Assembly: GCA_009885945.1 (NCBI GenBank)
Contig: VFJR01000071.1
Span: 1-31,432, forward strand
From: Anaerolineaceae bacterium
Lineage (GTDB): Bacteria; Chloroflexota; Anaerolineae; Anaerolineales; Villigracilaceae
Direction: 5' to 3'
DNA: 31,432 bases
A program made the translations under genes and the position numbers. The notes below the pieces were generated by a model. The model had not been told where the DNA came from. It saw only the letters and a program-made list of their open reading frames with translations, and did not search any database. Of this stretch, positions 3,796 to 18,397 are shown piece by piece (the first letter of the stretch is position 1; each line of letters opens with the position of its first letter).

Positions 3796-3797
3796 AA

Positions 3798-5241: not shown

Positions 5242-5270
5242 TTGACGCCCGCCCTTCTTACATGTATAAT
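5242..5270 (+). promoter_or_regulatory. Near-consensus sigma70-type promoter: TTGACG - 17 nt - TATAAT, about 45 nt upstream of the DUF4388 gene
   Basis: Read directly: TTGACG (5242-5247), 17-nt spacer, TATAAT (5265-5270), with TG immediately upstream of the -10. Sits in the AT-rich divergent intergenic region 5181-5316. Confidence 0.45.
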
Positions 5271-5316
5271 CTCTAAAATATCCATAATTTCGACCTGAAG
5301 GATTCAGAGGCAACCT

Positions 5317-6123
5317 ATGGCCCTTCGTGGCAACTTAAGAGATTTTACAATTACCCAATTGCTTAACTTGATCAATTTGGCTGGTAAAACAGGCACATTG
5401 ATTTTAGAAGGTCCCGCTGAGCAGGCGCATGTTTCTTTTCGCGAGGGCAAATTAGCATATGCGCGTATTGGTCAGGACGATGGCAGTTTGGCAAGTATTT
5501 TACATAAAGCCAACAAGTTGAATGCAAATCAATACCGCGCCATCGCAGACCGAGCTGGTCAAATGACTGATAAGGAACTTGGTCTCTTGTTAATTAATGC
5601 GGGCTATGTTTCACAAGATGATATTCTTCTCAATCTACAATCCCATTTTTCAGATGTAATTAGACGTTTATTTACCTGGGTTGAGGGTTTTTTCCGTTTT
5701 GAAGCAGAGATCATGCCTCCTGAAGATCGCATCAATGTGCGGCTGGATCTCGAAAATATTATTATTGAAGGCTCTCGTGAATTGCGTGAGCTTGAACAAC
5801 TTAAAGATGAAATTCCCAGCCTGGATATGGCATTGAAATTCACAGACCGCCCGATGAAGCACGTCAATTTGAGCGTAGAAGAGTGGCGCGTTGTTTCATT
5901 TATAAACCCAAAGAACACAATGAAGCAGATTGCGCAGACTAATAAAATGTCTGAATTGGAAGTTCGGCGCATTGTCTACGGTCTTTTGCAAGCTGGTTTG
6001 GTTGAGATGGTAAGGCCTGAAGGGGTAGTGGTTCAACAAAATCCCAAGACCTATCCAACTCAGGATAAAGAAGAACAAAAAACGCTGATCAATAAGTTGA
6101 TCGGGCGCATTCGCACCATGTAA
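5317..6123 (+). CDS. DUF4388-type protein (N-terminal DUF4388/PATAN-like domain plus C-terminal wHTH-like domain), probable partner/regulator of the downstream GTPase
   Basis: N-terminus 'LRGNLRDFTITQLLNLINLAGKTGTLIL' is the characteristic DUF4388 opening. C-terminal 'NLSVEEWRVVSFINPKNTMKQIAQTNKMSELEVRRIVYGLLQAGLVEMV' resembles the family's second domain. SD AGAGG 7 nt upstream. Family assignment is from memory, not a search. Confidence 0.5.
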   Translation: MALRGNLRDFTITQLLNLINLAGKTGTLILEGPAEQAHVSFREGKLAYARIGQDDGSLASILHKANKLNANQYRAIADRAGQMTDKELGLLLINAGYVSQDDILLNLQSHFSDVIRRLFTWVEGFFRFEAEIMPPEDRINVRLDLENIIIEGSRELRELEQLKDEIPSLDMALKFTDRPMKHVNLSVEEWRVVSFINPKNTMKQIAQTNKMSELEVRRIVYGLLQAGLVEMVRPEGVVVQQNPKTYPTQDKEEQKTLINKLIGRIRTM

Positions 6124-6147
6124 ATTTTTTGGAAGGAATAATTTATT

Positions 6148-6687
6148 ATGCAAACAGTAAAAATGGTGGTAACAGGTCCGTTCAGTGCCGGCAAGACTCA
6201 ATTTATTCAGTCTGTCAGTGAAATTGATGTAGTTGCAACAGAGCGTAAAATTTCATCCGAAGAAGAACGTGCAGTTAAGTCGGCGACCACTGTCGCAATG
6301 GACTTTGGGCGTATCACAGTGGATGAAGATCTTGTTCTTTATTTATTTGGTACTCCTGGGCAAAAAAGATTTGATTTTATGTGGGAAATTCTTTCTGAGG
6401 GCATGTTAGGGTTTATTGTGATGGTTGATAGTACCCGCCCTGAGACTTTCCGCGAAGCCCGTTCAATTTTAGAGACTTTCCGCGCATATGCTCCCACTCC
6501 TTTTGTGGTTGCCGCTAATAAGCAGGATATGCCAGAAGCTTGGGATATGGAAGATATTCGCCATGCTTTACGGCTTGATGCTGAAACAAAGCTGTTACCC
6601 TGCGTAGCAACCAATCGTGATACCGTCAAGACAGTTCTTTTGGAACTGCTTTTCAGCATCATGCAGGAAATGGAGTCCGGAAAATAG
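6148..6687 (+). CDS. Small Ras-like GTPase of the MglA/CvnD ('conservon' ATP/GTP-binding protein, COG2229) family
   Basis: P-loop 'GPFSAGKT'. 'TTVAMDFGRITVDEDLVLYLFGTPGQKRFDFMWEILSEGMLGFIVMVDSTR' closely matches the CvnD/MglA signature (TTVAMDFGR ... LYLFGTPGQ.RF.FMW). NKxD motif 'AANKQD'. SD GGAAGGAA upstream. Confidence 0.75.
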   Translation: MQTVKMVVTGPFSAGKTQFIQSVSEIDVVATERKISSEEERAVKSATTVAMDFGRITVDEDLVLYLFGTPGQKRFDFMWEILSEGMLGFIVMVDSTRPETFREARSILETFRAYAPTPFVVAANKQDMPEAWDMEDIRHALRLDAETKLLPCVATNRDTVKTVLLELLFSIMQEMESGK

Positions 6688-6709
6688 GCTATCCGGTGAA
6701 ACAGTTTTC

Positions 6710-7507
6710 GTGTCATCAATTACAACAGATCAGGGAATAGTTCATTATGAGGTATACGGGCGCGGGCGTCCCGTAATTCTTTTGCATGGTTGGCTTGGGT
6801 CGTGGGGGTTATGGCAGGAGACGATGGCATATTTGGGTGCTTTTTACCGCACATACGCCATGGATTTTTGTGGGTTTGGTGAATCTGGAAAGAAACGTGA
6901 AACCTATGCAGTACAGGATTTTGTCGGCTTAGTTAACCAATTCATGGAGCAATTGGGTATTGTGCATGCGCCATTGGTGGGGCATAGCATGGGTGGCACT
7001 GTTAGTTTGTCGGTGGCAATAAAACATCCCGAGCGGGTTAGCAAAGTTGTGGTGGTTGGATCGCCCATTGTTGGTTCGTCGCTTGCGCCATTGTTGAAGG
7101 TCTCAGGGTATCGGCCAGTTGCTTTTTTACTCTTTAATATGATGGGACCCTTTCGCGCCTTTATGAAATATTATTATTCACGCGCTATTTGCAGTGACCC
7201 TCGTTTTCCTGCAATGATGGACCGCGACCTTTCTCGTACGACAGTTGAATCGTTTCTGCTCTCTATTTCTTCACTTCGCCGTACCGATTTGCGCCCAATG
7301 TTGGATCAAATAAAAGTTCCTGCGCTCGGAATGTATGGTCATAAAGATAAAATTGTGCACCCGTTGCAATGGCAGCCTATGCAACAGGGAATTGTTGGGT
7401 CTAGAATTGAGCATTTCCCAAATGCTGGTCATTTTCCTATGCTGGAAGAACCTGCTGAATTTAGCAAAAGATTAAAAGCGTTTTTAGACGAGCCATTGCC
7501 AGCATAA
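6710..7507 (+). CDS. Alpha/beta-fold hydrolase with an intact catalytic triad (paralog of 18804..19592)
   Basis: Oxyanion 'LLHGW', nucleophile elbow 'GHSMGG' (Ser codon 6986-6988), acid 'GHKDKIVHP', His 'NAGHFPMLEEP'. Start set at in-frame GTG 6710 (VSSITTDQGIVHYEV...) by analogy to the paralog's N-terminus 'MSAILIDGSIVHYEA'. The ORF-track start at 6617 overlaps the GTPase gene and is unlikely. Confidence 0.65.
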   Translation: MSSITTDQGIVHYEVYGRGRPVILLHGWLGSWGLWQETMAYLGAFYRTYAMDFCGFGESGKKRETYAVQDFVGLVNQFMEQLGIVHAPLVGHSMGGTVSLSVAIKHPERVSKVVVVGSPIVGSSLAPLLKVSGYRPVAFLLFNMMGPFRAFMKYYYSRAICSDPRFPAMMDRDLSRTTVESFLLSISSLRRTDLRPMLDQIKVPALGMYGHKDKIVHPLQWQPMQQGIVGSRIEHFPNAGHFPMLEEPAEFSKRLKAFLDEPLPA

Positions 7508-7539
7508 TAGGGTACTGTACCTCGTATATAAGCACTCAA

Positions 7540-7572
7540 CGCGATGGATAAGAGAATATCCTCGCGTTTTTC
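7540..7572 (+). terminator. Rho-independent terminator after the hydrolase gene: CGCGA(T)GGATA-agagaa-TATCCTCGCG followed by TTTTT
   Basis: Inverted repeat plus T-tract read directly, about 30 nt after the 7507 stop. Confidence 0.55.
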
Positions 7573-7665
7573 ATCTAAATACCACTACAATTCTTTTGTA
7601 AGACCTGTAAACTCACCAAGCAGAAACCGTATTTAATCCTTGCAATCATTTATAATTGAAACAAT

Positions 7666-8937
7666 ATGCTGAAAATTATTTTACACGCTCCAAACAATGT
7701 GCATCCGTTTTGTGAGCCGGCCCGCGATTTACGCATTCAAAACTCTCCCCTTTGGCTTCATCAGCGTAATGTACTCACTCCTTATGTGACTCGTGAAGTG
7801 GAAGTGAAGCCAGGGGTACCTTTTAATCCCACCCGTGAACCATCCATTGTATATCGTGACAATTTATTCTTTGATCAGGAATACATTGATGCCTTTATCA
7901 GTGAGGCAAAAAGAAAAAATCGTGCTGTTCGTGCGGCTTTTTCTGCAGATGACCCAGCTTTTCGGGAACATGCGCTTCCTCTTTCATCATCCTATACACC
8001 TGCTGGTAGTTTATATCTTGCTGATTTATGGTACTACCCAAATGGCCCTGTAGCAGATGTAGAACCTCTGGTGATAGATTTGCAATCCCGTGAAATTGGG
8101 TATTATCATGTGCCGACCTATATGGCTGAGCAAACAGGGGATCTGTTATTTCAGGTACCTCTTCGTTCTTTGATTGCAATTGACTCTTGGGTACATATCT
8201 TCGTTGCTGATATGATTTTTAGTCAATTTGGTCGAGGAGCGCGCTTTGAGAAGCAGCTGCATGAAGACCTGGCTTTTAAGTTAAAAATTATTGGTACTGC
8301 TATTTATGAGGGCAGGCAGGTCTTGGATTGTTCAGAATTAGTACAGATGGGCAAAAATTGCGTGATTGATCCTAGCGCTGTTATCCATGGACCTACGATC
8401 ATTGGAGACAATGTCAATATCGGCGCTGGAACTGTGATTGAGAACTCGATCATTGGCAATAATGTGAATATTTCACAGGGTTGCCAAATTATGCTTTCAG
8501 TTGTGGGGGATGGGGCTTTCCTACCATTTCGTGCCGCTTTGTTTATGACCACAGTGATGGACCATAGCATGGTGGCGCAAAATACATGTTTGCAGATGTG
8601 CGTGATTGGACGTAATACATTTATTGGCGCTGGTACAACCTTCACAGATTACAATATTATCCCCGCACCGCTTCGCGCACTTTCGGGAGATGGCTCTTTG
8701 CGCCCGTCCAATCGTCCGGTATTGGGCGGCTGCGTTGGTCATAATTGCCGCTTAGGCTCTGGCATGATTGTTTATCCGGCGCGCACCATTGAATCAGATG
8801 TAGTGCTGGCTGCATCGCAGGAACGACGTGTGATTAGCAAGGATATTCGTTTTGAAGATAGTGATCATCATCGCATGAAGCTTTCTCATTTGCATCAGAC
8901 CCCTTATCATAAAAAGAAAGAAGAAGAGTCCTGGTAA
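7666..8937 (+). CDS. Left-handed beta-helix (hexapeptide-repeat) protein with an N-terminal domain of uncertain identity, possibly a degenerate sugar-nucleotidyltransferase-like fold lacking the Gly-rich loop
   Basis: Hexapeptide repeats 'IGDNVNIGAGTVIENSIIGNNVNISQGCQIM' and 'IGRNTFIGAGTTF'. N-terminus 'LKIILHAPNNVHPFCEP...PLWLHQRNVL' only loosely resembles the NTP-transferase 'KAIILAGGxGTRL...PLL' and has no GxGTRL. No SD before the ATG; a TATAAT sits 9 nt upstream, so the transcript may be leaderless. Confidence 0.45.
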   Translation: MLKIILHAPNNVHPFCEPARDLRIQNSPLWLHQRNVLTPYVTREVEVKPGVPFNPTREPSIVYRDNLFFDQEYIDAFISEAKRKNRAVRAAFSADDPAFREHALPLSSSYTPAGSLYLADLWYYPNGPVADVEPLVIDLQSREIGYYHVPTYMAEQTGDLLFQVPLRSLIAIDSWVHIFVADMIFSQFGRGARFEKQLHEDLAFKLKIIGTAIYEGRQVLDCSELVQMGKNCVIDPSAVIHGPTIIGDNVNIGAGTVIENSIIGNNVNISQGCQIMLSVVGDGAFLPFRAALFMTTVMDHSMVAQNTCLQMCVIGRNTFIGAGTTFTDYNIIPAPLRALSGDGSLRPSNRPVLGGCVGHNCRLGSGMIVYPARTIESDVVLAASQERRVISKDIRFEDSDHHRMKLSHLHQTPYHKKKEEESW

Positions 8938-10023
8938 ATGGACAGTTTTGCGTTCATCATACATCCAGTTGACCCCAAGCGCGATGTAAGCAGGAAGTTT
9001 CCATTTTTGGGGCGTACGTTGAGTGAAAAACAGATTGATTTTTTCTCAACTTTTTTCCCACCCGTATATATTTCTGAGATTAACGGCATTACGTCGAAGG
9101 CGACTGGAAAAGAGATTAAAGGTTGGTTTATTGCATGTCCGTTTACGCCGCGCCGTATGATGGAGTTGCGCGAGCAGAGGGTATATCGTAAAATTATCCA
9201 AACTGGGCGCGTCGCTGAGAAATTAGGAGCAAACATCCTTGGCTTGGGAGCCTTCACCTCGGTTGTGGGGGATTCTGGCGTGACGATTGCAAATGCGCTG
9301 GATGTGCCTGTGACCACAGGCGATTCTTATACTGTAGCTCTTGCTGTGCAGGCAATTCGTGATGCGGCAAAGGTGATGGATATTAAGATGCAGGATGCCA
9401 CAGTAGCAGTCGTTGGCGCTACAGGTACAATTGGGCGCGTCTGTGCTGAGCTGTTGGCTGGCGAGGCGGCACGGGTTTTGCTTGTGGCCCGGGATGAGAA
9501 AAAGCTTGAAGTTTTACGTGACAGGCTCAAGCTCCATGCTCGAAGCGAATTGCAAATCAGCACGAGCATGGATGTATTATCTGAGGCTAAATTGATCCTC
9601 ACTGTGACGAGTGCAGTGCATGACGTTATCAAGCCTGAGCATTTATTGCCTGGAAGTGTTGTTTGTGATGTGGCTCGTCCTCGTGATGTTTCTGCAATGG
9701 TAGCGGCTGTGAGAGATGATATATTAGTGATTGATGGTGGCATGGTAGACGTACCAGGTCCCGTTGATTTCCACTTTAATTTTGGTTTTCCAGAAGGCAA
9801 GGCGTATGCCTGTATGGCTGAGACCATGGCGCTGGCTTTGGAAGGCAGATTTGAAGATTACACTGTGGGTAAGGATATTACACTTGCTCGTGTTCAGGAA
9901 ATTACGACCATTGCTGAAAAACATGGCTTTCGTTTGAGCGGATTTCGCTCATTTGAAAAAGAAGTAACGGAAGCACAAATTGAAACTGTGAAAAGGAATG
10001 CCCGCAAAATGCGGCGTGCATAA
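8938..10023 (+). CDS. Predicted NAD(P)-binding dehydrogenase (COG5322-like 'predicted amino-acid dehydrogenase' / shikimate-DH-like Rossmann fold)
   Basis: Rossmann motif 'VAVVGATGTIGRVCAELLA'. N-terminal 'FAFIIHPVDPKRD...FIACPFTPRRMME' is typical of COG5322 members as I recall them. The start ATG directly abuts the upstream stop (TAAATG), indicating translational coupling. Confidence 0.45.
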   Translation: MDSFAFIIHPVDPKRDVSRKFPFLGRTLSEKQIDFFSTFFPPVYISEINGITSKATGKEIKGWFIACPFTPRRMMELREQRVYRKIIQTGRVAEKLGANILGLGAFTSVVGDSGVTIANALDVPVTTGDSYTVALAVQAIRDAAKVMDIKMQDATVAVVGATGTIGRVCAELLAGEAARVLLVARDEKKLEVLRDRLKLHARSELQISTSMDVLSEAKLILTVTSAVHDVIKPEHLLPGSVVCDVARPRDVSAMVAAVRDDILVIDGGMVDVPGPVDFHFNFGFPEGKAYACMAETMALALEGRFEDYTVGKDITLARVQEITTIAEKHGFRLSGFRSFEKEVTEAQIETVKRNARKMRRA

Positions 10024-10034
10024 GGAGGCTCGTC

Positions 10035-10940
10035 ATGGCAAAAGCCCGATTGTTAGTTGTGGAAGACGATATTGATATTGCGAATATGCTTAAGATCTAC
10101 TTCTCTGGATTAGAATTTGATGTAGATGTAGCAAATCGCGGGATGGATGCTTTGGAAAAGACAAAGCATGTGATTCCTCATTTAATGGTGTTGGATATTA
10201 TGCTGCCTGATATTGACGGCTATGAAGTATGCCGTCAGTTGCGTATGAATACCCGCACTAGCCATATTCCTGTGATTTTTCTTACCCAAAAGGATGAACG
10301 CAGTGATAAGTTACAGGGTTTGGAATTAGGCGCTGATGACTATATTACAAAACCCTTTGATATTGAGGAATTAAAATTGCGCGTGACGGGTGCTATTCGC
10401 CGCGCTGAGCGTGAGAGTCTTACTGACCCGCGTTCTGGTTTACCTGCTGGGCGTTTGATTGAAGAGCAGCTGCGCCGCATTATTCGTGAGACAAATTGGG
10501 CAATGTTAGATTTGCGCTTAAATTACTTTGATGCGTTCAAAGATGTTTATGGCTTTGTCGCTGGTGATGATGTTTTACGTTTTGCTACTATGATATTAAG
10601 TGAAGTGGTAGATGAACTAGGCACGAACAAGGATTTTATTGGGCACCCAGGCGGTGATAATTTTGTAATCATTAGTACTCCTGAAGCTGCAATTACAATT
10701 CGCCAACGCCTTAAGGATCGCTTTGCGAATGAAGTGCAAACGCACTATAATTTTATCGACCGACAACAGGGATTTATCCAGGCTCCAAGAGCTGATGGGG
10801 GGGTAGATAAAGTTCCCTTTATGACCCTTTCAATTGGATTGGTATCACCGACTCAGCATTCTTTTGCTGATATTCGCGAAATTACTGAGTTAGCGGCAGA
10901 AGCCAGACGGCAGGATACACCTGCGGCTTCTATTGCCTGA
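10035..10940 (+). CDS. Response regulator: REC receiver plus GGDEF-like domain with degenerate active site GGDNF (predicted catalytically inactive diguanylate cyclase)
   Basis: REC: 'LLVVEDD', phospho-acceptor 'MVLDIMLP', 'YITKPF'. GGDEF-like: 'RSGLPAGRL', 'YGFVAGDDVLR', 'IGHPGGDNFVIIS' (GGDNF codons at 10650-10664). The I-site RxxD is replaced by TNKD. Strong SD TAAGGAGG 6 nt upstream. Confidence 0.8.
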   Translation: MAKARLLVVEDDIDIANMLKIYFSGLEFDVDVANRGMDALEKTKHVIPHLMVLDIMLPDIDGYEVCRQLRMNTRTSHIPVIFLTQKDERSDKLQGLELGADDYITKPFDIEELKLRVTGAIRRAERESLTDPRSGLPAGRLIEEQLRRIIRETNWAMLDLRLNYFDAFKDVYGFVAGDDVLRFATMILSEVVDELGTNKDFIGHPGGDNFVIISTPEAAITIRQRLKDRFANEVQTHYNFIDRQQGFIQAPRADGGVDKVPFMTLSIGLVSPTQHSFADIREITELAAEARRQDTPAASIA

Positions 10941-10957: not shown

Positions 10958-13900
10958 ATGTTAGCCGGGGTAGGCCTCGGAATTTGGCTTATTATCGCTG
11001 GACTGGCGCTTGTCTTGCTAGTCTGGTTAGTATTATGGTTGCTACCTGGGGAAAAAACTGCGAAAGTATCTGAAGCTCCAAGTTATTTGCCAGATACAGC
11101 AAATTCAATTGATGCGGTTTTGATCGTTGAACCAGGCGGGCGTGTTAATTATATGAATTCGCTCGCTCGTCACTGGTTCGATATGGCTGAAAATGATGAG
11201 CCGGATATTGAGCGTTTAACGCGCCGGGTACGTCCTGCGGATCAGTTTTTAGATGTTTGTGTTATGCCTGGTCAAAAACGTGTGACGATAGGCGGGAGGT
11301 TAATGGAAGTTACTTCTTATGAAGTACCCGGTACTTCTCCTTTAATTCTCGTAACTTTGCGTGCTATGGATTTGGGATCTGCATTAATTGGCGGGACATC
11401 GGATTCTTCTACATCTATTCTAAAGGTAGTAAAAGATTTTAGTCAGGCTGTTTCTTTGAGCCTTAGCTTGATGCATACCCTTCAAGCCGTCCTGGAAAAT
11501 ATTAGCCGTTTAACTTCGTCTGATATTCTTGAGCTTAAGTTGTGGGATACCCAGTCTGATTCGTTAATTCCTTATCGTTTTGACGATCCTAATTCACCAG
11601 CACGCGTTATTGTACGTGCTTCAGTAACTCAATTCGGAGAATTTACAAGCCAGTTACTTACTACTCGTCAGCCGGTTTTTATTGCCAGCACCGAAGCGCG
11701 CTCAAACACTGCTCCGCGCAATGCAGAAATTAAATCCATTCATTCTTATTTAGGAATCCCATTAATTGTTGGCGATAAATTGGTTGGAACATTGGAAGCA
11801 GGGCAGACGAGCGGTGGTTCATTTGGTCAGCATGACCTTGACCTTTTGTTATTGGTTTCAGGACAAGCAGCATCTGCTCTTCGAAATGCCGGACGATATG
11901 AAGAAGAGGAAAAACGCTCACTAGAATTATCCGGTTTGGCAAACCTTACTCAGGCTTTTAGTTCTATTCAAGACGTGCGGGACCTTTTTGCTAGTCTTAT
12001 CGAGAGTATTTCTCTGCTCTTCAACACAGATATTATTGGTTTCCTCCTCTTTGACGAGGACAAGAGTACTTTAGAAGGCCAAATCCCTTTTCGAGGCATT
12101 CCTGCTCATATTGTAGAAATTTTCCGCTCATCCATTCCGTCTGGCAGCAGTGCAGAGCAGGTTTTAAACAGCCGCAATTCTATCTATACCTTGGATGCAT
12201 CCAAAGACGAATCATGGCGTTTGCTTGGGTTTACCAACATTGCCATTGCTGCTAGTTTGCGGGATTGCGCCTTGATTCCTTTGGTATCTTCGAGCCGTGT
12301 TGTAGGTTATTTTCTTCTCGCACATCATCGTGGTGGTACTTCTGCTTTTACAAAAGACGAATCTCGTTTAATTGATATTGTTGCCGATCAAGTTGCGGCA
12401 ATTGTTGATAATGCCTTGCTTGTACAACATGCTCGCATTAGAAGTCAGCGATCTGATTCCTTGCGGCGTATTGCTAGTCTTTCAGCTTCTTCCGCTACAT
12501 TGAATGAAGTTCTGACATTTTCTATTCAAGAACTTGCCAACCTTTTTCAGGCAGAAGCTGGCGCTGTTTTTCTACTAAACAGTAAATCTGGCGAACTAAC
12601 GCTGGAGAAAAATTCAGCTTTTGGCGTTGATGAAAATACTAAGGAAGCTTTCAAAGTAATTTATATAGATCAGCCTCAATACCGCCAGACCGTTTCTGGC
12701 AGTCAAAGATCGTTTGTTTCCGGTAGGTTAAGCACAGATCGACGTGTTAGCCCTCCGTACCAGCAGTTAGCCGGCGTTTTGCATATGGAATCGGTGCTTT
12801 TGGTGCCTCTTGTTGCGCGTGATAAAAGTATTGGCGAATTAATGTTGGGAAATCGCCGCTCCGATTATTTCACAACCTACGATCTGCAAATTGTATCTAC
12901 TGCCGCTGGTTTGCTTGCGACAGCTATAGAAAATTCAAACTTATTGAAGCAAACAGATGATTCTTTGCGTCAAAAGGTTGATCAATTATCGTCTGCATCT
13001 GTTACTGCAAGGGAAATCAGCGCCTCGCTTGAATATGATCATCTGTTACAGATTATTTATGAAGAAGCTTTAAAGATTTCACATGCTACCTGCGGATCAG
13101 TCATCTTTTTTAAATTTAATGAGAATGATGAAATTCCTCATATAACACATTCCATAGGCTGTTTTAACTCCAAAGTTGTTACTCCTTTCGAACTTGCAGC
13201 AATCAAGCGCGGTTCTGCAATTGAAATGCCAGACTTCTTTAGCCAAATAGATTATTCCGCCCCCCACGAAAGTGTTCACTCTGCATTACTGGTTCCAATT
13301 GTTCACCATGGGAAAACGACTGGTTTAATACAGTTACATAGTAGCCAGGCTGCTTTTTTCAAATCGATGATTTCTGAATCTGTTCAATCGCTTGCTTTGC
13401 AAAGCGGCATCGCTCTCGAAAATGCGCGTCAATATAATGATGAGCGTTTGCACGTAGAAGTCTTGCGGCGCCGTGCCGAAACATTGGTTGACTTGTCTAA
13501 TGTAAGTTATTCTCTAAACCTTGAAGAACCACTTGAAGGCTCGCTGCTCTCTATTGCTCACGGCATTAGTAAAGCTACTTCTTTTCAGGTTGTCTTGATT
13601 AGTATATTTGAATCTGAAACAGGAATGTTGCGTCGTGTTACAGGTGTTGGCATTCCTCAGGATATTTTAAACGAATTACTTTCAAGAAAACAGCCCTATA
13701 GCAGTGTTCAATCCCTGCTACGCCCCGAATTTAAGATTGGGCGCACCTACTACATCCCAGCAGATCAAACACCAATAGTGCCTTCGGATGTGCACATGGT
13801 AACTTTACAATTAAGTAGTGATCAAAAAACATCGAATTCATGGTACTCAGAAGATTTTCTTCTTATTCCTCTTGAAGATGGACAAGGAAACCCCATTGGC

Positions 13901-16900
13901 TTAATCAGCCTTGATGATCCATCCAATGGTTTACGCCCGGATATGGCGACCATTTCTTCGCTCGAAGCGTTTGCAGCGCAAGCAACATTAGTGATCACTA
14001 ATGTTGCTCGAGCAAGCGATTTAAAAAATAAGGTAGATGCATTAACCGCAGGCCTGCAGCGTCAACAAAAACTATTAAGCGTTACGCAAAATGATGTTCC
14101 GATTTTGTTACGCAAGGATTTAGAACAAACTATTTCGGTACATAGCCTTGAGAGGCGTGCTCAGCGCGTCCGCGCAGGATTGCTTATTACGGAAAGTGTC
14201 AGCCGTCAACTGGATGCAAGTTCAGCGCTGATGGCGCTTGCCCGCGAAGTTCTTACCCAGTTAAACATGTCCGCGTCTATCGTAGCTGAAAGTGGGGCAG
14301 AGGGACCACGCCTTCTTCACATCCTAGGCAGTGTGCCCAAATCCACAAACGTAGACGCATTGTTTGGTCAACGCAATCCATTACGGAGTTGTTTGCAATC
14401 TGGTGAGCCTTTATTAGTAGCAACGCTTGAAGAAAATGAAGAATGGCGTGATGCGCCATTGTTAACATCTCTGCGCGCAAAAGCTTTTATTTGCCTTCCC
14501 GTCATGGTGGAAAATGTTCCAGTTGCTGCCATGCTTGCCGTCAGCCCTGAACCGCTCACTGCATTTACAGATGAAGACCGTCAAGTTTATTACCAAATTT
14601 CTCGTCAAACATCTGTTATTCTGCAGAATATTTCCCTGCTTAATGAAACTCGCAGACGTTTGCAAGAAGTGAATCTTCTGTTGGAGTTCAGTCAACATCT
14701 TAGCGGGTTAAGCCCGGAAGAAATTTTACGTTCTCTGCTTGACAGTGCCCGCCGTGTATTACATTCTGCTCACGCTGGGAATGTTCTTTTATGGGATTTT
14801 CAATCTGATCTTCTTGTTTCACGCGCTGTTTCTGGATATGCAGATAATGAAAGTTTGACTCGAATTACGTACCGTTCTGGTGAAGCTTTGCCAGGTTCTG
14901 TATATGCATCTCGCAAACCACGCAAAGTGGATGAAATTAATTTTTCCAGAGATTACAATATTTCTTCAGAGAATTTACTTCTCTATCGTCAGGCAACCGG
15001 CGGGCGCATTCCCGTATCCAGTTTGCTCGTTCCTATTATTTCTGGCGATCGAAATCTTGGTTTATTAGTTCTGGATAATTTTAATGCTACAGGCGCATTT
15101 AAGGTAGAAGATGAAACTTTACTTCTTTCTTTGACACAGCAGGTTGCGCTATCGCTCGAAAACGTTCGATTAGTACTGGCAACCCAAGAACGCGCAGGTC
15201 AATTGCAGGCATTAAACGATGTTGCCGCCTCACTTACTTCAAATTTACGTAATGATCAATTGGTTAAATCATTGCTAGATCAGCTTGCTCCGGTAATTCC
15301 ATTTGATACCGCTACATTATTGGTTCGCGAAAAAGACCGCCTTAAGGTAATGGATGTGCGCGGGTTTGAAGATAATGATCAACGCCTAGGCCTCAGTTTG
15401 GCAGTGGCGGATAGCGCTATTTTTAACGAAATGAGTCGCAAGGGACAGCCTGTTGTAGTGAGCGATGTGCGTGAGGACCCACGTTTTCCGCGGGTAGATG
15501 CTCCTCGTCTGTCATGGCTTGGCATTCCTATGATTTCAAAAGGCGAATTAGTAGGTGTGATTACGCTGGAAAAGGCGCAGGTACGTTTCTATAATAAAGA
15601 ACAGGCGCAAGTCGCTGCAACATTTGCTAGTCAGGCTGCTGTAGCGTTGGAAAATGCCACTCTTTATGAAGACAGTTTAAGTCGCGCAGCAGAACTTGAC
15701 CAACGTTCCCAGCGTTTAATGGTATTGAATCGTTTCTCGGCTTCTCTTGGCGGTTTGTTGGATGTTGATCAGATACTACAATTAACTGCTCAGGAATTAT
15801 TACAGGCTTTGACAAATGTCAAACGTATTTCAATAATTACGTTTGAAGGCGAAAAAGCAATTTGGAAATTGGCATCTCCTCGCACTAATATGAAACTGCC
15901 GCGACCCCTTCCTCATGCCCCAATTTTTGATCGTTTACGTAGTTCTATGGGACTTTTCACCTCAGATAATATTGCTAATGAACCTGATCTAATGCCTTTG
16001 AAAGATATGCTGGGCCAAGACAATGCTTCTCTAATGATTGTTCCTCTCGGGGTTGCATCCAAGTTAACCGGTTTGCTATTTGCTTACACACCAGGCCAAT
16101 ATCGCTTCACTTCCACTGAAGTGGACCTAGCCCGTACTATGGTCACGCAAGCTTCGATCACGTTAGAAAATGCCCGTTTATACGAATCAAGTGTTCGTAC
16201 GGCAGAACGATTCGCTGCATTAAACGAAACTAGCTCGCAGATCAGTGCAAACCTTAATGCTGAGGAAATTTATCAAGCTGTGCATAAAGCGGCAAAACGT
16301 GTTATGCCAGTAGAATCATTTGTGATCAGTTTGTTGGATGAAGATACAAATGAAATTATCGGTGCATATTTAATAGATCATGATCAGCGTTCTCCAGCTA
16401 CGCGTGTTCCTAGATCGCAAGGCCTTACCGGTAAAATTCTTGAGAGTGGCCAACCTTTGTTAATAAGCGGAGATGAAGTAAAAGCAGCTGGTGGAATTCA
16501 ATATGGGGATGCTCCCAAATCGCCATTATCTATTATTGCTGTGCCAATGACCTTGGGAGGAAAGACCTTGGGGATGCTTTCTGCACAGAGCTATGAACCA
16601 AATATATATACTGATGATGATGTGCAAATTCTGGGTACTCTTGCAAATCAGACTATTGTTGCACTTCAAAACAGCAAACTTTTAATAGAAACTCAAACAC
16701 TAGCCGCAGAGCAAGAACGCCGTGTGGTTGAACGTACTGCACAATTACAACATGAGCAACAAAATACAGAAACATTGTTGCGCATTCTCACAGAAGTATC
16801 TTCAAGTCTTGATCTTGACCGTGCTTTGAATCGCACGCTTTCCTTACTTAATGATGCCATCGGCGCTGAACAGGGCACAATTATGCTTCTGCACGCCGAA

Positions 16901-18397
16901 GACAATCTTTTGCATTATCGTGCTGGCTATGGATACCTTTCCGAACGAGCAGATGGAGTTAATCGCACCCTTACATTAAAGGTGGGGGAAGGCTTAGCTG
17001 GATGGGTTGTACAAAACCGTGAAGCAACATTAGTCGATGATTTACATGAAGATAGTCGCTGGACACGATCTCCTAGCTCGTCACAAGATCACCGCAGCGC
17101 TTTAATTACCCCCATGTTGGTAAGTGAAGACGTTATTGGCGTTTTAATGGTTTTTCACCGTGAAGTCAGTTTCTTTAGCCCTGAAATGCTCAATTTGGTA
17201 AAGGCAATTGCAAGTCAGGTAGCTGTAGCAATAAATAATGCGCATTTATATGAATTAATTCGTGATCAAGCAGAACGTCTTGGTGTAATGCTCCGCAAGG
17301 AACAAGAGGAAGCCAGCCGTTCTCAAGCTATTCTTGAAGCTGTTGCCGATGGCGTTTTGGTAACAGGCGCAGATAACCGAATTACATTTGTTAACTACTC
17401 CATTGAACGTATCCTTGGGTTAAAAGTTGAACAAATCCTTGGGCAATCATTGGATGTGTTTGGCGGATTATTCGGCAAGACAGCTAGTGATTGGATGGAA
17501 ACGATTCGCCTTTGGTCAGAAGCGCCCGCATCCTATCAAACGGGTGATTCCTATGCGGAACAGATCGAACTTGAAAATGGGCATATAGCGTTGGTCCATC
17601 TGGCGCCTGTTATTTTACAAAACGATTTCCTTGGCACTGTTTCCATCTTTCGTGATATTACTCATGAAGTTGAGGTGGATCGTCTGAAGTCCGAATTTGT
17701 AGCAACGGTTAGCCATGAATTACGTACCCCTATGACAGCCATTAAGGGCTATGTCGAAATCTTGCTAATGGGTGCGGCTGGTGCTATTGGCGAAAACCAA
17801 GCACACTTCTTATCTATAGTAAAGAATAATATCGAACGACTTAATTCTTTAGTGGATGACTTGCTTGACATATCTCGCATCGAATCAGGTCGTGTCACTC
17901 TTACGCCGCAACCATTAGAAATGCGCGAAGTGGCAGAGGATGTAATTGCCGAGCTTTTGCGCCGTTCTCAAGAAGAGAAAAAACCAATGGCAGTATCGCT
18001 CGATGCTGAAAAGAATCTCCCGCCAGTTGTTGGTGATGTTGGACGGGTACGTCAAATACTCGGAAACCTGGTGGACAACGCCTATCATTACACCCCAGAG
18101 AATGGCACTATCCATGTTAATATTTACACAACAAACGGAAATGGCGAAAAACAGCTGCGCGTGGATGTGCAAGACAATGGTGTTGGCATTGCAGTAGAAG
18201 ACCAAGAGCGCATCTTCGATCGCTTTTATCGTGGTGAACACCCTCTTGTATTGGCTACCCCTGGAACAGGATTGGGACTCTCCATTGTCCGCCAACTTGT
18301 GGAAATGCATAATGGAAAACTTTGGATGAATAGCTCAGGCGTAGCTGGTGAAGGAAGTATCTTCTCCTTCACATTGCCAGTCTATAAAAATCAATGA
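10958..18397 (+). CDS. Giant (2479 aa) membrane-anchored sensor histidine kinase: N-terminal TM, PAS, about 11 tandem GAF domains, PAS, HisKA, HATPase_c
   Basis: TM 'GVGLGIWLIIAGLALVLLVWLVLWLL'. At least 11 repeated GAF C-terminal blocks (e.g. AALENATLYEDS, ITLENARLYESS, VAINNAHLYELI, ALQNSKLLIETQ, SLENVRLVLATQ). H-box 'EFVATVSHELRTPMTAIKGY'. N-box 'GNLVDNAYHYTPENG'. G1 'DNGVGIAVED'. G2 'GTGLGLSIVRQLVEMHNGKLW'. Single uninterrupted ORF. Confidence 0.85.
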   Translation: MLAGVGLGIWLIIAGLALVLLVWLVLWLLPGEKTAKVSEAPSYLPDTANSIDAVLIVEPGGRVNYMNSLARHWFDMAENDEPDIERLTRRVRPADQFLDVCVMPGQKRVTIGGRLMEVTSYEVPGTSPLILVTLRAMDLGSALIGGTSDSSTSILKVVKDFSQAVSLSLSLMHTLQAVLENISRLTSSDILELKLWDTQSDSLIPYRFDDPNSPARVIVRASVTQFGEFTSQLLTTRQPVFIASTEARSNTAPRNAEIKSIHSYLGIPLIVGDKLVGTLEAGQTSGGSFGQHDLDLLLLVSGQAASALRNAGRYEEEEKRSLELSGLANLTQAFSSIQDVRDLFASLIESISLLFNTDIIGFLLFDEDKSTLEGQIPFRGIPAHIVEIFRSSIPSGSSAEQVLNSRNSIYTLDASKDESWRLLGFTNIAIAASLRDCALIPLVSSSRVVGYFLLAHHRGGTSAFTKDESRLIDIVADQVAAIVDNALLVQHARIRSQRSDSLRRIASLSASSATLNEVLTFSIQELANLFQAEAGAVFLLNSKSGELTLEKNSAFGVDENTKEAFKVIYIDQPQYRQTVSGSQRSFVSGRLSTDRRVSPPYQQLAGVLHMESVLLVPLVARDKSIGELMLGNRRSDYFTTYDLQIVSTAAGLLATAIENSNLLKQTDDSLRQKVDQLSSASVTAREISASLEYDHLLQIIYEEALKISHATCGSVIFFKFNENDEIPHITHSIGCFNSKVVTPFELAAIKRGSAIEMPDFFSQIDYSAPHESVHSALLVPIVHHGKTTGLIQLHSSQAAFFKSMISESVQSLALQSGIALENARQYNDERLHVEVLRRRAETLVDLSNVSYSLNLEEPLEGSLLSIAHGISKATSFQVVLISIFESETGMLRRVTGVGIPQDILNELLSRKQPYSSVQSLLRPEFKIGRTYYIPADQTPIVPSDVHMVTLQLSSDQKTSNSWYSEDFLLIPLEDGQGNPIGLISLDDPSNGLRPDMATISSLEAFAAQATLVITNVARASDLKNKVDALTAGLQRQQKLLSVTQNDVPILLRKDLEQTISVHSLERRAQRVRAGLLITESVSRQLDASSALMALAREVLTQLNMSASIVAESGAEGPRLLHILGSVPKSTNVDALFGQRNPLRSCLQSGEPLLVATLEENEEWRDAPLLTSLRAKAFICLPVMVENVPVAAMLAVSPEPLTAFTDEDRQVYYQISRQTSVILQNISLLNETRRRLQEVNLLLEFSQHLSGLSPEEILRSLLDSARRVLHSAHAGNVLLWDFQSDLLVSRAVSGYADNESLTRITYRSGEALPGSVYASRKPRKVDEINFSRDYNISSENLLLYRQATGGRIPVSSLLVPIISGDRNLGLLVLDNFNATGAFKVEDETLLLSLTQQVALSLENVRLVLATQERAGQLQALNDVAASLTSNLRNDQLVKSLLDQLAPVIPFDTATLLVREKDRLKVMDVRGFEDNDQRLGLSLAVADSAIFNEMSRKGQPVVVSDVREDPRFPRVDAPRLSWLGIPMISKGELVGVITLEKAQVRFYNKEQAQVAATFASQAAVALENATLYEDSLSRAAELDQRSQRLMVLNRFSASLGGLLDVDQILQLTAQELLQALTNVKRISIITFEGEKAIWKLASPRTNMKLPRPLPHAPIFDRLRSSMGLFTSDNIANEPDLMPLKDMLGQDNASLMIVPLGVASKLTGLLFAYTPGQYRFTSTEVDLARTMVTQASITLENARLYESSVRTAERFAALNETSSQISANLNAEEIYQAVHKAAKRVMPVESFVISLLDEDTNEIIGAYLIDHDQRSPATRVPRSQGLTGKILESGQPLLISGDEVKAAGGIQYGDAPKSPLSIIAVPMTLGGKTLGMLSAQSYEPNIYTDDDVQILGTLANQTIVALQNSKLLIETQTLAAEQERRVVERTAQLQHEQQNTETLLRILTEVSSSLDLDRALNRTLSLLNDAIGAEQGTIMLLHAEDNLLHYRAGYGYLSERADGVNRTLTLKVGEGLAGWVVQNREATLVDDLHEDSRWTRSPSSSQDHRSALITPMLVSEDVIGVLMVFHREVSFFSPEMLNLVKAIASQVAVAINNAHLYELIRDQAERLGVMLRKEQEEASRSQAILEAVADGVLVTGADNRITFVNYSIERILGLKVEQILGQSLDVFGGLFGKTASDWMETIRLWSEAPASYQTGDSYAEQIELENGHIALVHLAPVILQNDFLGTVSIFRDITHEVEVDRLKSEFVATVSHELRTPMTAIKGYVEILLMGAAGAIGENQAHFLSIVKNNIERLNSLVDDLLDISRIESGRVTLTPQPLEMREVAEDVIAELLRRSQEEKKPMAVSLDAEKNLPPVVGDVGRVRQILGNLVDNAYHYTPENGTIHVNIYTTNGNGEKQLRVDVQDNGVGIAVEDQERIFDRFYRGEHPLVLATPGTGLGLSIVRQLVEMHNGKLWMNSSGVAGEGSIFSFTLPVYKNQ

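What the first reader, a model, noticed from the sequence alone, without database searches (positions are those of the whole stretch)
5242..7507. Conservon-like mini-module: DUF4388 protein plus CvnD/MglA-type GTPase plus hydrolase, driven by a near-consensus promoter and placed directly upstream of the giant kinase operon
The GTPase carries the CvnD/COG2229 signature (TTVAMDFGR...LYLFGTPGQKRF.FMW). In actinobacterial conservons and in MglA/MglB systems, these GTPases partner with Roadblock/LC7 and DUF742 proteins and a sensor-kinase-like CvnA. Here there is no Roadblock or DUF742 gene. The partner is instead a DUF4388 (PATAN-like) protein. An intact alpha/beta hydrolase follows, and a very large sensor kinase lies immediately downstream. 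This may be a variant 'GTPase plus kinase' signalling architecture in which DUF4388 substitutes for the MglB/CvnB GAP or GEF role.
Basis: partly seen in the sequence, partly recalled or inferred. Interest (0 to 1): 0.6.

Follow-up and report, generated by a model that had tools for sequence, protein, structure and literature searches.

The report
PATAN partner plus MglA-type small GTPase
This is an ordinary member of an already catalogued bacterial switch, a small Ras-like GTPase encoded next to a PATAN-domain partner protein; the new point is that the partner's second half looks like the exchange factor of the actinobacterial "conservon" system.

Summary
The three genes and the promoter are real. 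They are a 268-aa DUF4388/PATAN protein (5317-6123), a 179-aa small GTPase (6148-6687), an intact alpha/beta hydrolase (about 6710-7507) and a TTGACG-17-TATAAT promoter (5242-5270). That promoter is conserved in 57 of 74 related loci. The organism is an Anaerolineales bacterium (Chloroflexota).

The PATAN gene sits directly upstream of the GTPase gene in 84 of 84 Anaerolineae loci. The same pair occurs in Thermus and Deinococcus, and the two proteins are fused in three independent protein clusters. The functional link is therefore solid, but it is not new. Wuichet and Sogaard-Andersen (2015) list the Anaerolinea thermophila ortholog as a "Group 5 MglA" with a PATAN neighbour.

The idea that PATAN replaces Roadblock/MglB is not supported. 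Most PATAN-linked Group 5 loci also carry MglB. Anaerolineae keep a conserved Roadblock-V4R-REC/GGDEF operon elsewhere in the genome.

Profile-profile comparison instead matches the C-terminal half of the PATAN protein (winged helix plus terminal helix) to DUF742/CvnC/MfpC (93% probability, P = 3e-7). MfpC is the known exchange factor of the conservon GTPase.

The giant kinase is not immediately downstream; three genes intervene. It is nevertheless syntenic in 58 of 69 loci.

The parts
5242..5270 (+). Sigma-70-type promoter: -35 TTGACG (5242-5247), 17-nt spacer, -10 TATAAT (5265-5270), 46 nt before the ATG
   Evidence: The consensus scan gives 11 of 12 matches. The same hexamers are conserved in 57 of 74 Anaerolineae loci, 28-59 nt from the start codon, in otherwise divergent upstream DNA.
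5317..6123 (+). 268-aa PATAN (DUF4388/PatA_N) protein with a C-terminal CvnC/DUF742-like module
   Evidence: Pfam PF14332 scores 86.7 bits. Orthologs are 80-94% identical across Anaerolineales. The AF2 model has pLDDT 82.9.
5485..5670 (+). Alpha-clip insertion (residues ~57-118, four helices) inside the PATAN domain
   Evidence: The AF2 secondary structure shows H58-64, H70-78, H85-94 and H100-118. This segment is absent from the Thermus and Deinococcus partners and from the fused homologs (alignment A4). Makarova 2006, as quoted, describes such an insertion.
5863..6015 (+). Winged helix-turn-helix (residues ~183-233), MarR-like
   Evidence: There are weak Pfam hits to MarR_2, Rrf2 and TrmB. 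A profile search against PDB hits MarR-family chains at E about 2e-3. It forms the core of the hhalign match to DUF742.
6067..6117 (+). Extreme C-terminal amphipathic helix (residues 251-267, ...KTLINKLIGRIRTM)
   Evidence: It is conserved in Anaerolineae, Thermus and Deinococcus partners. It aligns with the terminal LLxxhLxGLxxL helix of DUF742 proteins.
6148..6687 (+). 179-aa small GTPase, MglA family, Group-5 type
   Evidence: Pfam hits are ATP_bind_1, Ras and Arf. Motifs are GPFSAGKT / TTVAMDFG / GTPGQ / NKQD. It is 83-91% identical to many Anaerolineales proteins. The A. thermophila ortholog ANT_06780 is listed as Group 5.
6710..7507 (+). Alpha/beta-fold hydrolase (the mechanical ORF begins at 6617; the likely start is GTG 6710)
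   Evidence: Abhydrolase_1 scores 2.2e-32 and the GHSMG motif is present. This gene follows the GTPase in 65 of 81 loci.
7538..7576 (+). Hairpin followed by a U-run (terminator-like), at the position where relatives carry a V4R gene
   Evidence: The fold of 7508-7600 has MFE -20.8 kcal/mol, z = -2.6. The V4R gene is present here in 55 of 79 relatives.
7666..8937 (+). 423-aa left-handed beta-helix (hexapeptide-repeat) protein
   Evidence: Pfam Hexapep and LbH_EIF2B. Syntenic in 59 of 76 loci.
8938..10023 (+). 361-aa NAD(P)-binding reductase resembling acyl-ACP reductase and the PigE N-terminal half
   Evidence: NCBIfam PigE N-terminal region scores 225 bits and AcACP_reductase 132 bits, both below their cut-offs; Pfam Shikimate_DH also hits.
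10035..10940 (+). Response regulator: REC plus a degenerate GGDEF domain (GGDNF)
   Evidence: Pfam REC 8.7e-27 and GGDEF 2.5e-10. The GGDNF motif is conserved in 41 orthologs.
10958..18397 (+). 2479-aa membrane-anchored sensor histidine kinase (about 10 GAF domains, PAS, HisKA, HATPase_c)
   Evidence: Pfam. It lies within 6 kb downstream of the GTPase in 58 of 69 loci, and directly after the pair in L053, L070 and L074.
18406..18780 (+). Stand-alone REC response regulator, 8 nt after the kinase
   Evidence: Pfam Response_reg 3.5e-30.

Best explanation
The locus encodes a Group-5 MglA-family small-GTPase switch together with its dedicated partner protein. The pair is transcribed from a conserved strong promoter.

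The 268-aa partner has two parts. The N-terminal part is a PATAN domain with an alpha-clip insertion, a protein-protein interaction or targeting domain. The C-terminal part is a winged helix plus a terminal helix, and it is a distant homolog of CvnC/MfpC (DUF742).

By analogy with MfpC acting on MfpB, this C-terminal module binds the GTPase and most likely promotes nucleotide exchange (GEF). The PATAN part couples the switch to another machine or location.

The GTPase-activating Roadblock/MglB protein has not been replaced. It is encoded elsewhere in the genome, in Anaerolineae typically in a Roadblock-V4R-REC/GGDEF operon.

The downstream REC-GGDNF regulator, the giant multi-GAF histidine kinase and the REC protein are the likely signal input or output, as CvnA is in conservons. 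The hydrolase, LbH protein and reductase are lineage-specific accessory genes.

What is shown: domain identities, motifs, conserved adjacency, fusions and promoter conservation. What is inferred: DUF742 homology (profile-profile only), GEF activity, Roadblock located elsewhere in this particular genome, and coupling to the kinase.
For: Linkage of the PATAN gene and the GTPase gene:
- The PATAN gene is directly upstream of the GTPase gene in 84 of 84 Anaerolineae loci from 80 GTDB species.
- The same pair is annotated on Thermus plasmids as DUF4388 plus ATP/GTP-binding protein with overlapping stop and start. It also occurs in Deinococcus.
- Single polypeptides PATAN-wHTH-GTPase exist in three 50%-identity clusters. 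Two of these recur in several assemblies.
- Published Table S2 lists A. thermophila ANT_06780 (179 aa) as Group 5 MglA next to PATAN. By my count PATAN is adjacent in 26 of 38 Group 5 loci.

Equivalence to CvnC:
- The order MglB>PATAN>MglA in Aquificae and Roseiflexus equals CvnB>CvnC>CvnD.
- hhalign of the C-terminal half against 12 DUF742 proteins gives probability 93%, P = 3.3e-7. The alignment runs through the winged helix to the last residue.
- Reversed, column-shuffled and other-HTH controls score 7-23 against 44.
- MfpC is an experimentally shown GEF of MfpB (PMC11343762).

Roadblock elsewhere.

Kinase synteny holds in 58 of 69 loci, including loci where the kinase directly follows the pair.

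Promoter conservation.
Against: - Pfam's DUF742 HMM does not hit any of 16 diverse partner proteins. Only generic winged-helix families appear, and weakly.
- The Anaerolineae-only alignment gives only P = 0.003 against DUF742. The homology therefore rests on one profile-profile method and a 12-sequence DUF742 profile.
- No biochemical data exist for any PATAN-MglA pair.
- A 2026 preprint reports mfpC as exclusive to Actinobacteria.
- In A. thermolimosa the cluster ends before any kinase. In this window a terminator-like hairpin separates the first three genes from the rest. Coupling to the kinase is therefore not obligatory.
- This organism's own Roadblock gene was not seen, because only a 31-kb contig is available.
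Confidence: 0.55

Rival explanations
1. One reading: the PATAN protein has taken over the MglB/CvnB (Roadblock) role, acts as the GAP platform for the GTPase, and no Roadblock protein is needed.
Against: PATAN and MglB co-occur next to Group 5 GTPases in 19 of 26 published loci and in all five Deinococcota loci inspected. Roadblock-V4R pairs lie within 6 kb in 10 of 84 Anaerolineae loci. A very conserved Roadblock-V4R-REC/GGDEF operon exists in this lineage. A. thermophila has an orphan MglB. hhalign of the PATAN core against Roadblock is not significant (P = 0.07). The structural matches have rmsd of 10-14 A and may be driven by the winged helix.
Confidence: 0.1
2. The PATAN protein is an effector or adaptor, not a regulator. 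The GTP-bound GTPase binds it to recruit or control another machine, for example a PilB-type ATPase as with cyanobacterial PATAN regulators. Alternatively it controls DNA binding by the winged helix, so the protein would be a GTPase-controlled transcription factor.
For: PATAN domains of PatA-type regulators bind PilB1 and PilC, and the alpha-clip resembles the N1 region of PilB-type ATPases (preprint 10.1101/2021.06.11.447907). The C-terminal domain is MarR-like by sequence profile and by fold. The authors of the MfpC paper themselves raise DNA binding or an effector role for MfpC.
Against: No pilus or secretion genes lie in the window or in the 84 loci examined. The authors of the cyanobacterial study argue against DNA binding by PatA-type proteins. 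Conserved tight adjacency, translational coupling in Thermus and covalent fusion fit a stoichiometric regulator at least as well. This reading is also compatible with GEF activity, so it is only partly a rival.
Confidence: 0.25
3. Only the PATAN-GTPase pair is a functional unit. The hydrolase, LbH protein, reductase, REC-GGDNF protein and giant kinase merely share inherited gene order within Anaerolineae and do not belong to the switch.
For: The downstream set varies. Eight of 69 long loci have none of these genes. The hydrolase is absent in 16 of 81 loci and the kinase in 11 of 69. A. thermolimosa lacks the kinase next to the cluster. A 158-nt gap with a terminator-like hairpin follows the hydrolase here. 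All 84 loci come from one class, so the synteny may be vertical inheritance. In Deinococcota the neighbours are different: Roadblock, protoglobin, EAL and HD-GYP.
Against: When the metabolic genes are lost, the kinase and REC-GGDEF genes still follow the pair directly (L053, L070, L071, L073, L074, L079). The separate Roadblock operon carries paralogs of the same V4R and REC-GGDEF genes. In Thermus brockianus the module also sits beside c-di-GMP enzymes and sensor domains. Conservons likewise link a kinase to the GTPase.
Confidence: 0.3

Closest known systems
Group 5 MglA-family GTPase modules with a PATAN neighbour (Wuichet and Sogaard-Andersen 2015, Table S2; e.g. Anaerolinea thermophila ANT_06780, Deinococcus proteolyticus Deipr_2135)
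   Same: Same GTPase length (179 aa) and motif set (TT, GTPGQ, canonical NKxD). The PATAN gene is directly upstream on the same strand. The A. thermophila entry is the ortholog of this pair. Like the other Chloroflexi entries of 176-179 aa, it has no adjacent MglB.
   Different: Nothing essential differs. The paper calls the association 'occasional' and does not analyse the partner's C-terminal half, the fusions, the promoter or the Anaerolineae operon with the kinase.
Actinobacterial conservon (CvnA-D of Streptomyces; MfpB-E of mycobacteria)
   Same: A small GTPase of the TT / GTPGQ type. A small winged-helix protein with a terminal helix is encoded directly upstream of it (CvnC/MfpC, DUF742; the hhalign match is 93%). 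A histidine-kinase-type sensor lies in the same gene cluster. Gene order in related Group 5 loci (MglB-PATAN-MglA) equals CvnB-CvnC-CvnD.
   Different: - The GTPase has NKQD rather than NxFD, VAT rather than DAR, and lacks the actinobacterial G1-G2 insertion.
- The partner carries an extra N-terminal PATAN domain and fails the Pfam DUF742 model.
- There is no Roadblock gene in the cluster.
- The kinase is a 2479-aa multi-GAF HisKA kinase with cognate REC proteins. It ends ...LPVYKNQ and lacks the LPxR tail.
- The kinase lies downstream, not upstream.
MglA/MglB/RomR-RomX polarity module of Myxococcus xanthus and Thermus thermophilus (Group 1 MglA)
   Same: A Ras-superfamily switch of the same family. 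It is weakly similar to solved MglA structures (E about 2e-6). Regulation is by a Roadblock GAP and a separate GEF.
   Different: Group 1 proteins have an intrinsic arginine finger next to the G2 threonine and a TVPGQ G3 motif. Here the motifs are TT and GTPGQ. The GEF RomR-RomX is unrelated to PATAN and DUF742.
PatA-type PATAN-REC response regulators of cyanobacteria (PatA, PixG, PixE)
   Same: The same N-terminal PATAN domain with an alpha-clip insertion.
   Different: Those proteins end in a receiver domain and act on the type IV pilus motor. This one ends in a winged helix plus terminal helix and is paired with a GTPase.
NPRL2/NPRL3 (Npr2/Npr3) subunits of GATOR1/SEACIT, the GAP for Rag GTPases
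   Different: There is no sequence similarity (12-15% identity) and the rmsd is 10-14 A. The aligned region could not be inspected and the match may rest mainly on the winged helix. This is a resemblance, not membership.

Membership tests
PATAN / DUF4388 / PatA_N (PF14332) | Match to the Pfam model above its gathering score | tested here: met
   86.7 bits against a cut-off of 25, residues 4-159. Fifteen of 16 diverse partner homologs also match.
PATAN / DUF4388 / PatA_N (PF14332) | Optional alpha-clip: a helical insertion within the domain (Makarova 2006) | tested here: met
   Four helices at residues 58-118 in the AF2 model. They form an insertion relative to Thermus and Deinococcus homologs.
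MglA family, Group 5 (Wuichet and Sogaard-Andersen 2015) | Single-domain GTPase of at most 240 aa with G1 GxxxxGK[ST] | tested here: met
   179 aa, GPFSAGKT.
MglA family, Group 5 (Wuichet and Sogaard-Andersen 2015) | G2 with Thr in place of the Group 1 arginine finger, and G3 GTPGQ (Groups 2-5) | tested here: met
   TTVAMDFG and GTPGQ. GTPGQ is conserved in 82 of 83 orthologs.
MglA family, Group 5 (Wuichet and Sogaard-Andersen 2015) | Canonical G4 [NT]KxD, which separates Groups 1, 4 and 5 from Groups 2 and 3 | tested here: met
   NKQD in 82 of 83 orthologs. Conservon GTPases in the same alignment have NxFD.
MglA family, Group 5 (Wuichet and Sogaard-Andersen 2015) | Placement in the Group 5 clade of the family tree | not tested
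   No phylogeny was built here. The assignment rests on motifs and on the published listing of the 179-aa A. thermophila protein ANT_06780 with a PATAN neighbour.
Actinobacterial conservon (CvnABCD / MfpBCDE) | Group 2 GTPase with G4 NxFD and G5 DAR | tested here: not met
   The window has NKQD and VAT. It also lacks the 8-residue G1-G2 insertion of conservon GTPases.
Actinobacterial conservon (CvnABCD / MfpBCDE) | Roadblock/LC7 (CvnB) gene in the cluster | tested here: not met
   No Roadblock hit among window ORFs of at least 60 aa with an HMM that recovers all 12 training genes and 10 Anaerolineae genes.
Actinobacterial conservon (CvnABCD / MfpBCDE) | DUF742 (CvnC) protein encoded directly upstream of the GTPase | tested here: inconclusive
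   The Pfam DUF742 model gives no hit. hhalign of the C-terminal half against 12 DUF742 proteins gives probability 93%, P = 3.3e-7, with clean controls. The position upstream of the GTPase is the same.
Actinobacterial conservon (CvnABCD / MfpBCDE) | CvnA-type kinase with a C-terminal LPxR motif and no cognate response regulator | tested here: not met
   The kinase is a multi-GAF/PAS/HisKA/HATPase protein ending ...FTLPVYKNQ and is flanked by two REC proteins.
Coupled MglA-MglB module | MglB (Roadblock) gene adjacent to the GTPase gene | tested here: not met
   None in the window. It is met in Deinococcota relatives.
Alpha/beta-fold hydrolases | Pfam Abhydrolase match and the nucleophile elbow GxSxG | tested here: met
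   Abhydrolase_1 scores 113 bits and GHSMG is present. The substrate is unknown; all NCBIfam equivalog hits are far below their cut-offs.

The most novel reading that the evidence does not exclude
The partner proteins of Group 5 MglA GTPases are fusions of a PATAN domain with a cryptic CvnC/MfpC-type exchange-factor module. If so, the triad Roadblock (GAP) - PATAN/CvnC-like (GEF) - MglA-type GTPase is the widespread form of what is known in Actinobacteria as the conservon, found in Chloroflexota, Deinococcota, Aquificota and Cyanobacteria. The published statement that mfpC is confined to Actinobacteria would then be wrong. In addition, the PATAN core may be a longin/roadblock-like platform, as hinted by the NPRL2/NPRL3 structural matches.
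Probability: 0.35. Interest if true: 0.6.

Novelty: new member of a known kind. Interest (0 to 1): 0.38.

Why it matters
As found, the locus is one more example of a gene pair catalogued in 2015. Its function is still untested in any organism.

Its value is as a lead. Apart from RomR-RomX and MfpC, exchange factors for bacterial MglA-type GTPases are unknown. If the C-terminal half of the PATAN partner is a CvnC/MfpC homolog, the GEF of the whole Group 5 clade is identified by inference. Conservons and MglA/MglB/PATAN modules would then become one system.

A direct test is possible in tractable hosts, namely the megaplasmid modules of Thermus thermophilus or Deinococcus radiodurans.

The very high conservation of both proteins in Anaerolineales (about 80-94% identity) and the conserved strong promoter suggest a core cellular role in these abundant but poorly studied filamentous bacteria.

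Tried and rejected
- Single-sequence AF2 of the PATAN protein gave an unusable model (pLDDT 38.7). It was repeated with a 125-sequence alignment.
- Alignments A1 (63 sequences) and A2 (15 sequences) were not used for the locus scan. Cross-phylum evidence therefore had to come from plasmid records and the literature.
- The third homology search, with a mixed-phylum profile, was again saturated by Anaerolineae. It served only to diversify the AF2 alignment.
- The afdb50 fold library was unavailable.
- The Pfam DUF742 model never hit the partner proteins.
- The Anaerolineae-only C-terminal alignment against 6 DUF742 sequences was weak (P = 0.0055).
- hhalign of the PATAN core against Roadblock (P = 0.07), V4R (0.11) and DUF742 (0.53) showed nothing. 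A sequence-level PATAN-Roadblock relationship is therefore rejected.
- I suspected that the small protein after Roadblock in D. gobiensis is V4R-like, from a Cys/Gly pattern. Neither Pfam nor my V4R HMM supports this, so I dropped it.
- The hypothetical protein in the T. brockianus module is a protoglobin, not V4R.
- One literature search on PATAN, DUF742 and DUF4388 was swamped by the place name Patan. It showed only that none of the top-ranked papers holds DUF742 together with PATAN or DUF4388.
- I considered a reading of the GTPase as an SRP-receptor-beta or Arf-type protein, as some annotations say. I rejected it on the MglA-family motifs.


Full report
**What is in the window.**
On the + strand, tightly spaced, lie the following genes:
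- 5317-6123: a 268-aa protein.
- 6148-6687: a 179-aa protein, after a 24-nt gap with a GGAAGGA ribosome-binding site.
- A hydrolase ending at 7507.
- 7666-8937: a 423-aa protein, after a 158-nt gap.
- 8938-10023: a 361-aa protein.
- 10035-10940: a 301-aa protein.
- 10958-18397: a 2479-aa protein.
- 18406-18780: a 124-aa protein.
- 18804-19592: a 262-aa protein.

Pfam assigns them as follows:
- The first is DUF4388/PatA_N (86.7 bits).
- The second is ATP_bind_1/Ras/Arf.
- The third is Abhydrolase_1.
- The next three are a hexapeptide LbH protein, a Shikimate_DH-type NAD(P)-binding protein and a REC-GGDEF protein.
- The large protein is a kinase with about ten GAF domains, PAS, HisKA and HATPase_c.
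- The last two are a REC protein and a second alpha/beta hydrolase.

NCBIfam relates the NAD(P)-binding protein to acyl-ACP reductase and the PigE N-terminal half, below the cut-offs. The hydrolase most likely starts at GTG 6710, not 6617. That start gives the 265-aa length of its orthologs and removes the overlap with the GTPase gene. One correction applies: the kinase is three genes and 3.4 kb away, not immediately downstream.

**Source organism and conservation.**
The identical PATAN protein is on record from a 31,432-bp contig. The nearest relatives are all Anaerolineales and other Chloroflexota MAGs. Both proteins are unusually conserved. The GTPase is 83-91% identical and the partner 79-94% identical over full length in the listed 90%-identity clusters (the best 120 of several thousand).

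**The promoter.**
TTGACG-17-TATAAT at 5242-5270 matches 11 of 12 consensus positions. Overall, such sites are no commoner in the region than in shuffled sequence (14 found against 12.6 expected). The decisive evidence is comparative. In 57 of 74 related loci the same two hexamers (11 of 12) lie 28-59 nt before the PATAN start codon. The surrounding sequence and the upstream genes differ (compare). I take the promoter as real.

**Linkage of the two genes.**
Eighty loci from 80 GTDB species, plus four more places, were screened with the window proteins as queries.
- A PATAN gene lies directly upstream of the GTPase gene in 84 of 84 loci.
- Downstream content is less constant: hydrolase 65 of 81, V4R protein 55 of 79, LbH 59 of 76, reductase 47 of 72, REC-GGDEF 57 of 69, kinase 58 of 69.
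- The commonest order, in 39 loci, is hydrolase-V4R-LbH-reductase-REC/GGDEF-kinase.
- This window belongs to the minority without V4R. At that place it has a hairpin followed by a U-run.
- In several loci the metabolic genes are missing and the kinase or REC-GGDEF genes follow the pair directly (L053, L070, L071, L073, L074, L079).

All of these loci come from one class, so they could reflect inheritance alone. Independent evidence came from three sources.
- On megaplasmids of Thermus and Deinococcus, a GTPase 40-45% identical to this one is preceded by a PATAN-type protein. RefSeq names the Thermus proteins DUF4388, with overlapping stop and start codons. In each case a Roadblock/LC7 gene follows in the same cluster, directly in four of the five loci.
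- Among 50%-identity representatives of the GTPase family there are single polypeptides with PATAN, winged helix and GTPase in that order (P0358, P0360, P0389). Two of these clusters have 4 and 8 full-length members from different assemblies, so they are not one-off errors.
- The literature supports it too (next paragraph).

**What is already known.**
Wuichet and Sogaard-Andersen (2015, PMC4316618) split prokaryotic MglA-family GTPases into five groups.
- Groups 2-5 have Thr instead of the Group 1 arginine finger in G2, and GTPGQ in G3.
- Group 2, the conservon CvnD/MfpB proteins, has NxFD in G4 and DAR in G5.
- Groups 1, 4 and 5 keep [NT]KxD.

The window protein has TT, GTPGQ, NKQD and VAT. 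In an alignment with seven conservon GTPases it lacks their G1-G2 insertion. By motifs it is Group 5, not CvnD.

Their Table S2 lists Anaerolinea thermophila ANT_06780, 179 aa, Group 5, with the neighbourhood "<MglA<PATAN". This is the ortholog of the present pair.

By my count of that table, 26 of 38 Group 5 loci have PATAN adjacent and 19 of those 26 also have MglB adjacent. The seven without MglB are all Chloroflexi with 176-179-aa GTPases. The same supplement lists an orphan MglB in A. thermophila, ANT_03760. The main text calls the association occasional and cites Makarova et al. 2006 for PATAN-MglB neighbourhoods. A cyanobacterial study states that MglA and MglB homologs are regularly encoded near PATAN proteins. 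The gene pair is therefore a known kind, and this is a new member of it.

**Does PATAN replace Roadblock?**
The evidence says no.
- The co-occurrence described above argues against it.
- A Roadblock HMM finds Roadblock genes within 6 kb of the pair in 10 of 84 Anaerolineae loci, confirmed by Pfam at 67-70 bits. Each is paired with a V4R gene.
- A metagenome scan with one of these Roadblock proteins returned 80 contigs at 85-95% identity. V4R follows immediately in 55 of 57 usable contigs, and a REC-GGDEF-like gene usually comes next.
- None of the 10 contigs with at least 4.5 kb on both sides carries PATAN or the GTPase.

This lineage therefore keeps a conserved Roadblock operon elsewhere in the genome. 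I could not check this particular genome beyond its 31-kb contig.

**The second half of the partner protein.**
Pfam covers only residues 4-159. The rest gives weak hits to MarR-type winged helices.

Aligning partners from Anaerolineae, Thermus, Deinococcus and the fusions (A4) shows a shared plan:
1. A PATAN core.
2. An alpha-clip insertion, present only in Anaerolineae.
3. A short strand.
4. A winged helix.
5. A variable linker.
6. A conserved amphipathic helix at the very C-terminus (LINKLIGRIRTM here; LLRRLLGALRRL in Deinococcus).

Actinobacterial DUF742/CvnC proteins, taken from annotated conservons on plasmids, have the same plan. They have a winged helix, a linker and a terminal LLxxhLxGLxxL helix. 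They also sit directly upstream of the GTPase gene.

hhalign of the C-terminal half (16 sequences) against DUF742 gave the following:
- Against 6 DUF742 sequences: probability 93%, P = 3.5e-7, 90 columns.
- Against 12 DUF742 sequences: 93.1%, P = 3.3e-7, 77 columns, running to the last residue.
- Deinococcota sequences alone gave P = 7e-5 and Anaerolineae alone P = 0.003.
- Reversed profiles, 20 column-shuffled profiles and five unrelated HTH regulators scored 7-23 against 44.

HMMER with Pfam's DUF742 model sees nothing, so this is remote homology supported by one method plus architecture and gene position. The order MglB>PATAN>MglA in Aquificae and Roseiflexus equals CvnB>CvnC>CvnD. MfpC, the mycobacterial DUF742 protein, binds MfpB and accelerates its nucleotide exchange, while MfpD (Roadblock) is the GAP (PMC11343762). 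A 2026 preprint states that mfpC is found only in Actinobacteria. If my inference is right, that statement is too narrow. Among the top-ranked papers of the held library I saw none that mentions DUF742 together with PATAN or DUF4388.

**Structure.**
With a 125-sequence alignment AF2 gave pLDDT 82.9 and pTM 0.68. The secondary structure reads:
- Strand-helix-three strands (residues 4-51).
- Four helices (58-118).
- A strand (125-129) and a long helix (145-165).
- A strand, then the winged helix (187-232).
- A disordered linker and a terminal helix (251-267).

**Most likely mechanism.**
The pair is a GTPase switch and its dedicated regulator.
- The CvnC-like half of the partner binds the GTPase and probably acts as its exchange factor.
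- The PATAN half links the switch to another component. In cyanobacteria PATAN binds the pilus motor.
- A Roadblock protein encoded elsewhere supplies GAP activity.
- The REC-GGDNF regulator, the multi-GAF kinase and the REC protein provide sensory input or output.

The GGDEF signature is GGDNF here and in 41 orthologs, so the domain is probably not a cyclase.

My confidence in each step is:
- Functional coupling of the two proteins: about 0.9.
- DUF742 homology: about 0.65.
- GEF activity: about 0.35.
- Coupling to the kinase: about 0.5.

**Verdict.**
The conservon analogy and the PATAN-GTPase linkage hold, and a GEF-type role is plausible. Substitution for Roadblock does not hold, and neither does the claim of a novel architecture. 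The finding is a new member of a known, functionally untested kind. A moderately interesting and testable by-product is the likely CvnC/MfpC-like module in PATAN partners of Group 5 MglA GTPases.

Noticed in passing
window 7508-7665: Most relatives carry a 200-210-aa V4R-domain gene between the hydrolase and the LbH gene. This window has only a 158-nt spacer, with a 12-bp hairpin followed by a U-run (7538-7576). The first three genes may therefore be a separate transcript here.
   Followed up: partly
window 10035-10940: The REC-GGDEF response regulator has GGDNF instead of GG[DE]EF. The same change is conserved in 41 orthologs, so the domain is probably a non-catalytic, possibly nucleotide-binding, GGDEF.
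   Followed up: partly
L104-L183 (metagenome contigs); also L057, L059, L063, L071 at about 2240-4190: Anaerolineae-type contigs carry a very conserved three-gene unit: Roadblock/LC7, V4R and a REC-GGDEF-like gene. V4R is directly downstream of Roadblock in 55 of 57 contigs. The V4R and REC-GGDEF genes are paralogs of those in the PATAN-GTPase operon, which suggests two matched halves of one system.
   Followed up: partly
proteins P0245, P0251, P0254, P0271, P0273, P0277, P0304, P0315, P0317, P0335, P0339 (relatives of the window GTPase 6148-6687): GTPases 41-60% identical to this one occur fused behind TIR-HEAT, nSTAND1 NTPase or GAF domains, some with GNAT or REC tails. The TIR and STAND fusions look like defence or NLR-type proteins that use this GTPase as a module.
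   Followed up: no
window 7666-10023: The 423-aa LbH/hexapeptide protein has an unassigned 190-residue N-terminal part. The 361-aa protein resembles acyl-ACP reductase and the N-terminal half of PigE. They are translationally abutted (stop at 8937, start at 8938) and syntenic with the switch in most Anaerolineae. This hints at a lipid or aldehyde-forming step under its control.
   Followed up: no
L088 5908-6498; L089 5545-10381: In Thermus megaplasmids the PATAN-GTPase-Roadblock module is interleaved with protoglobin-domain genes. In T. brockianus it is followed by EAL and HD-GYP genes, which points to gas or redox sensing and c-di-GMP turnover around the same switch.
   Followed up: no
window 10958-18397: The kinase has one N-terminal transmembrane segment and about ten consecutive GAF domains before PAS-HisKA-HATPase. 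This size is conserved (2468 aa in L001).
   Followed up: no
window 23919-26914 (- strand): A 537-aa ORF with no Pfam family above noise overlaps by 4 nt the end of a 461-aa SPFH/Band 7 membrane protein gene. This is probably an uncharacterised two-gene unit.
   Followed up: no
window 45-1154: The ThyX (Thy1) homolog is 369 aa. The Pfam match begins only at residue 158, which leaves an unassigned N-terminal extension of about 150 residues.
   Followed up: no
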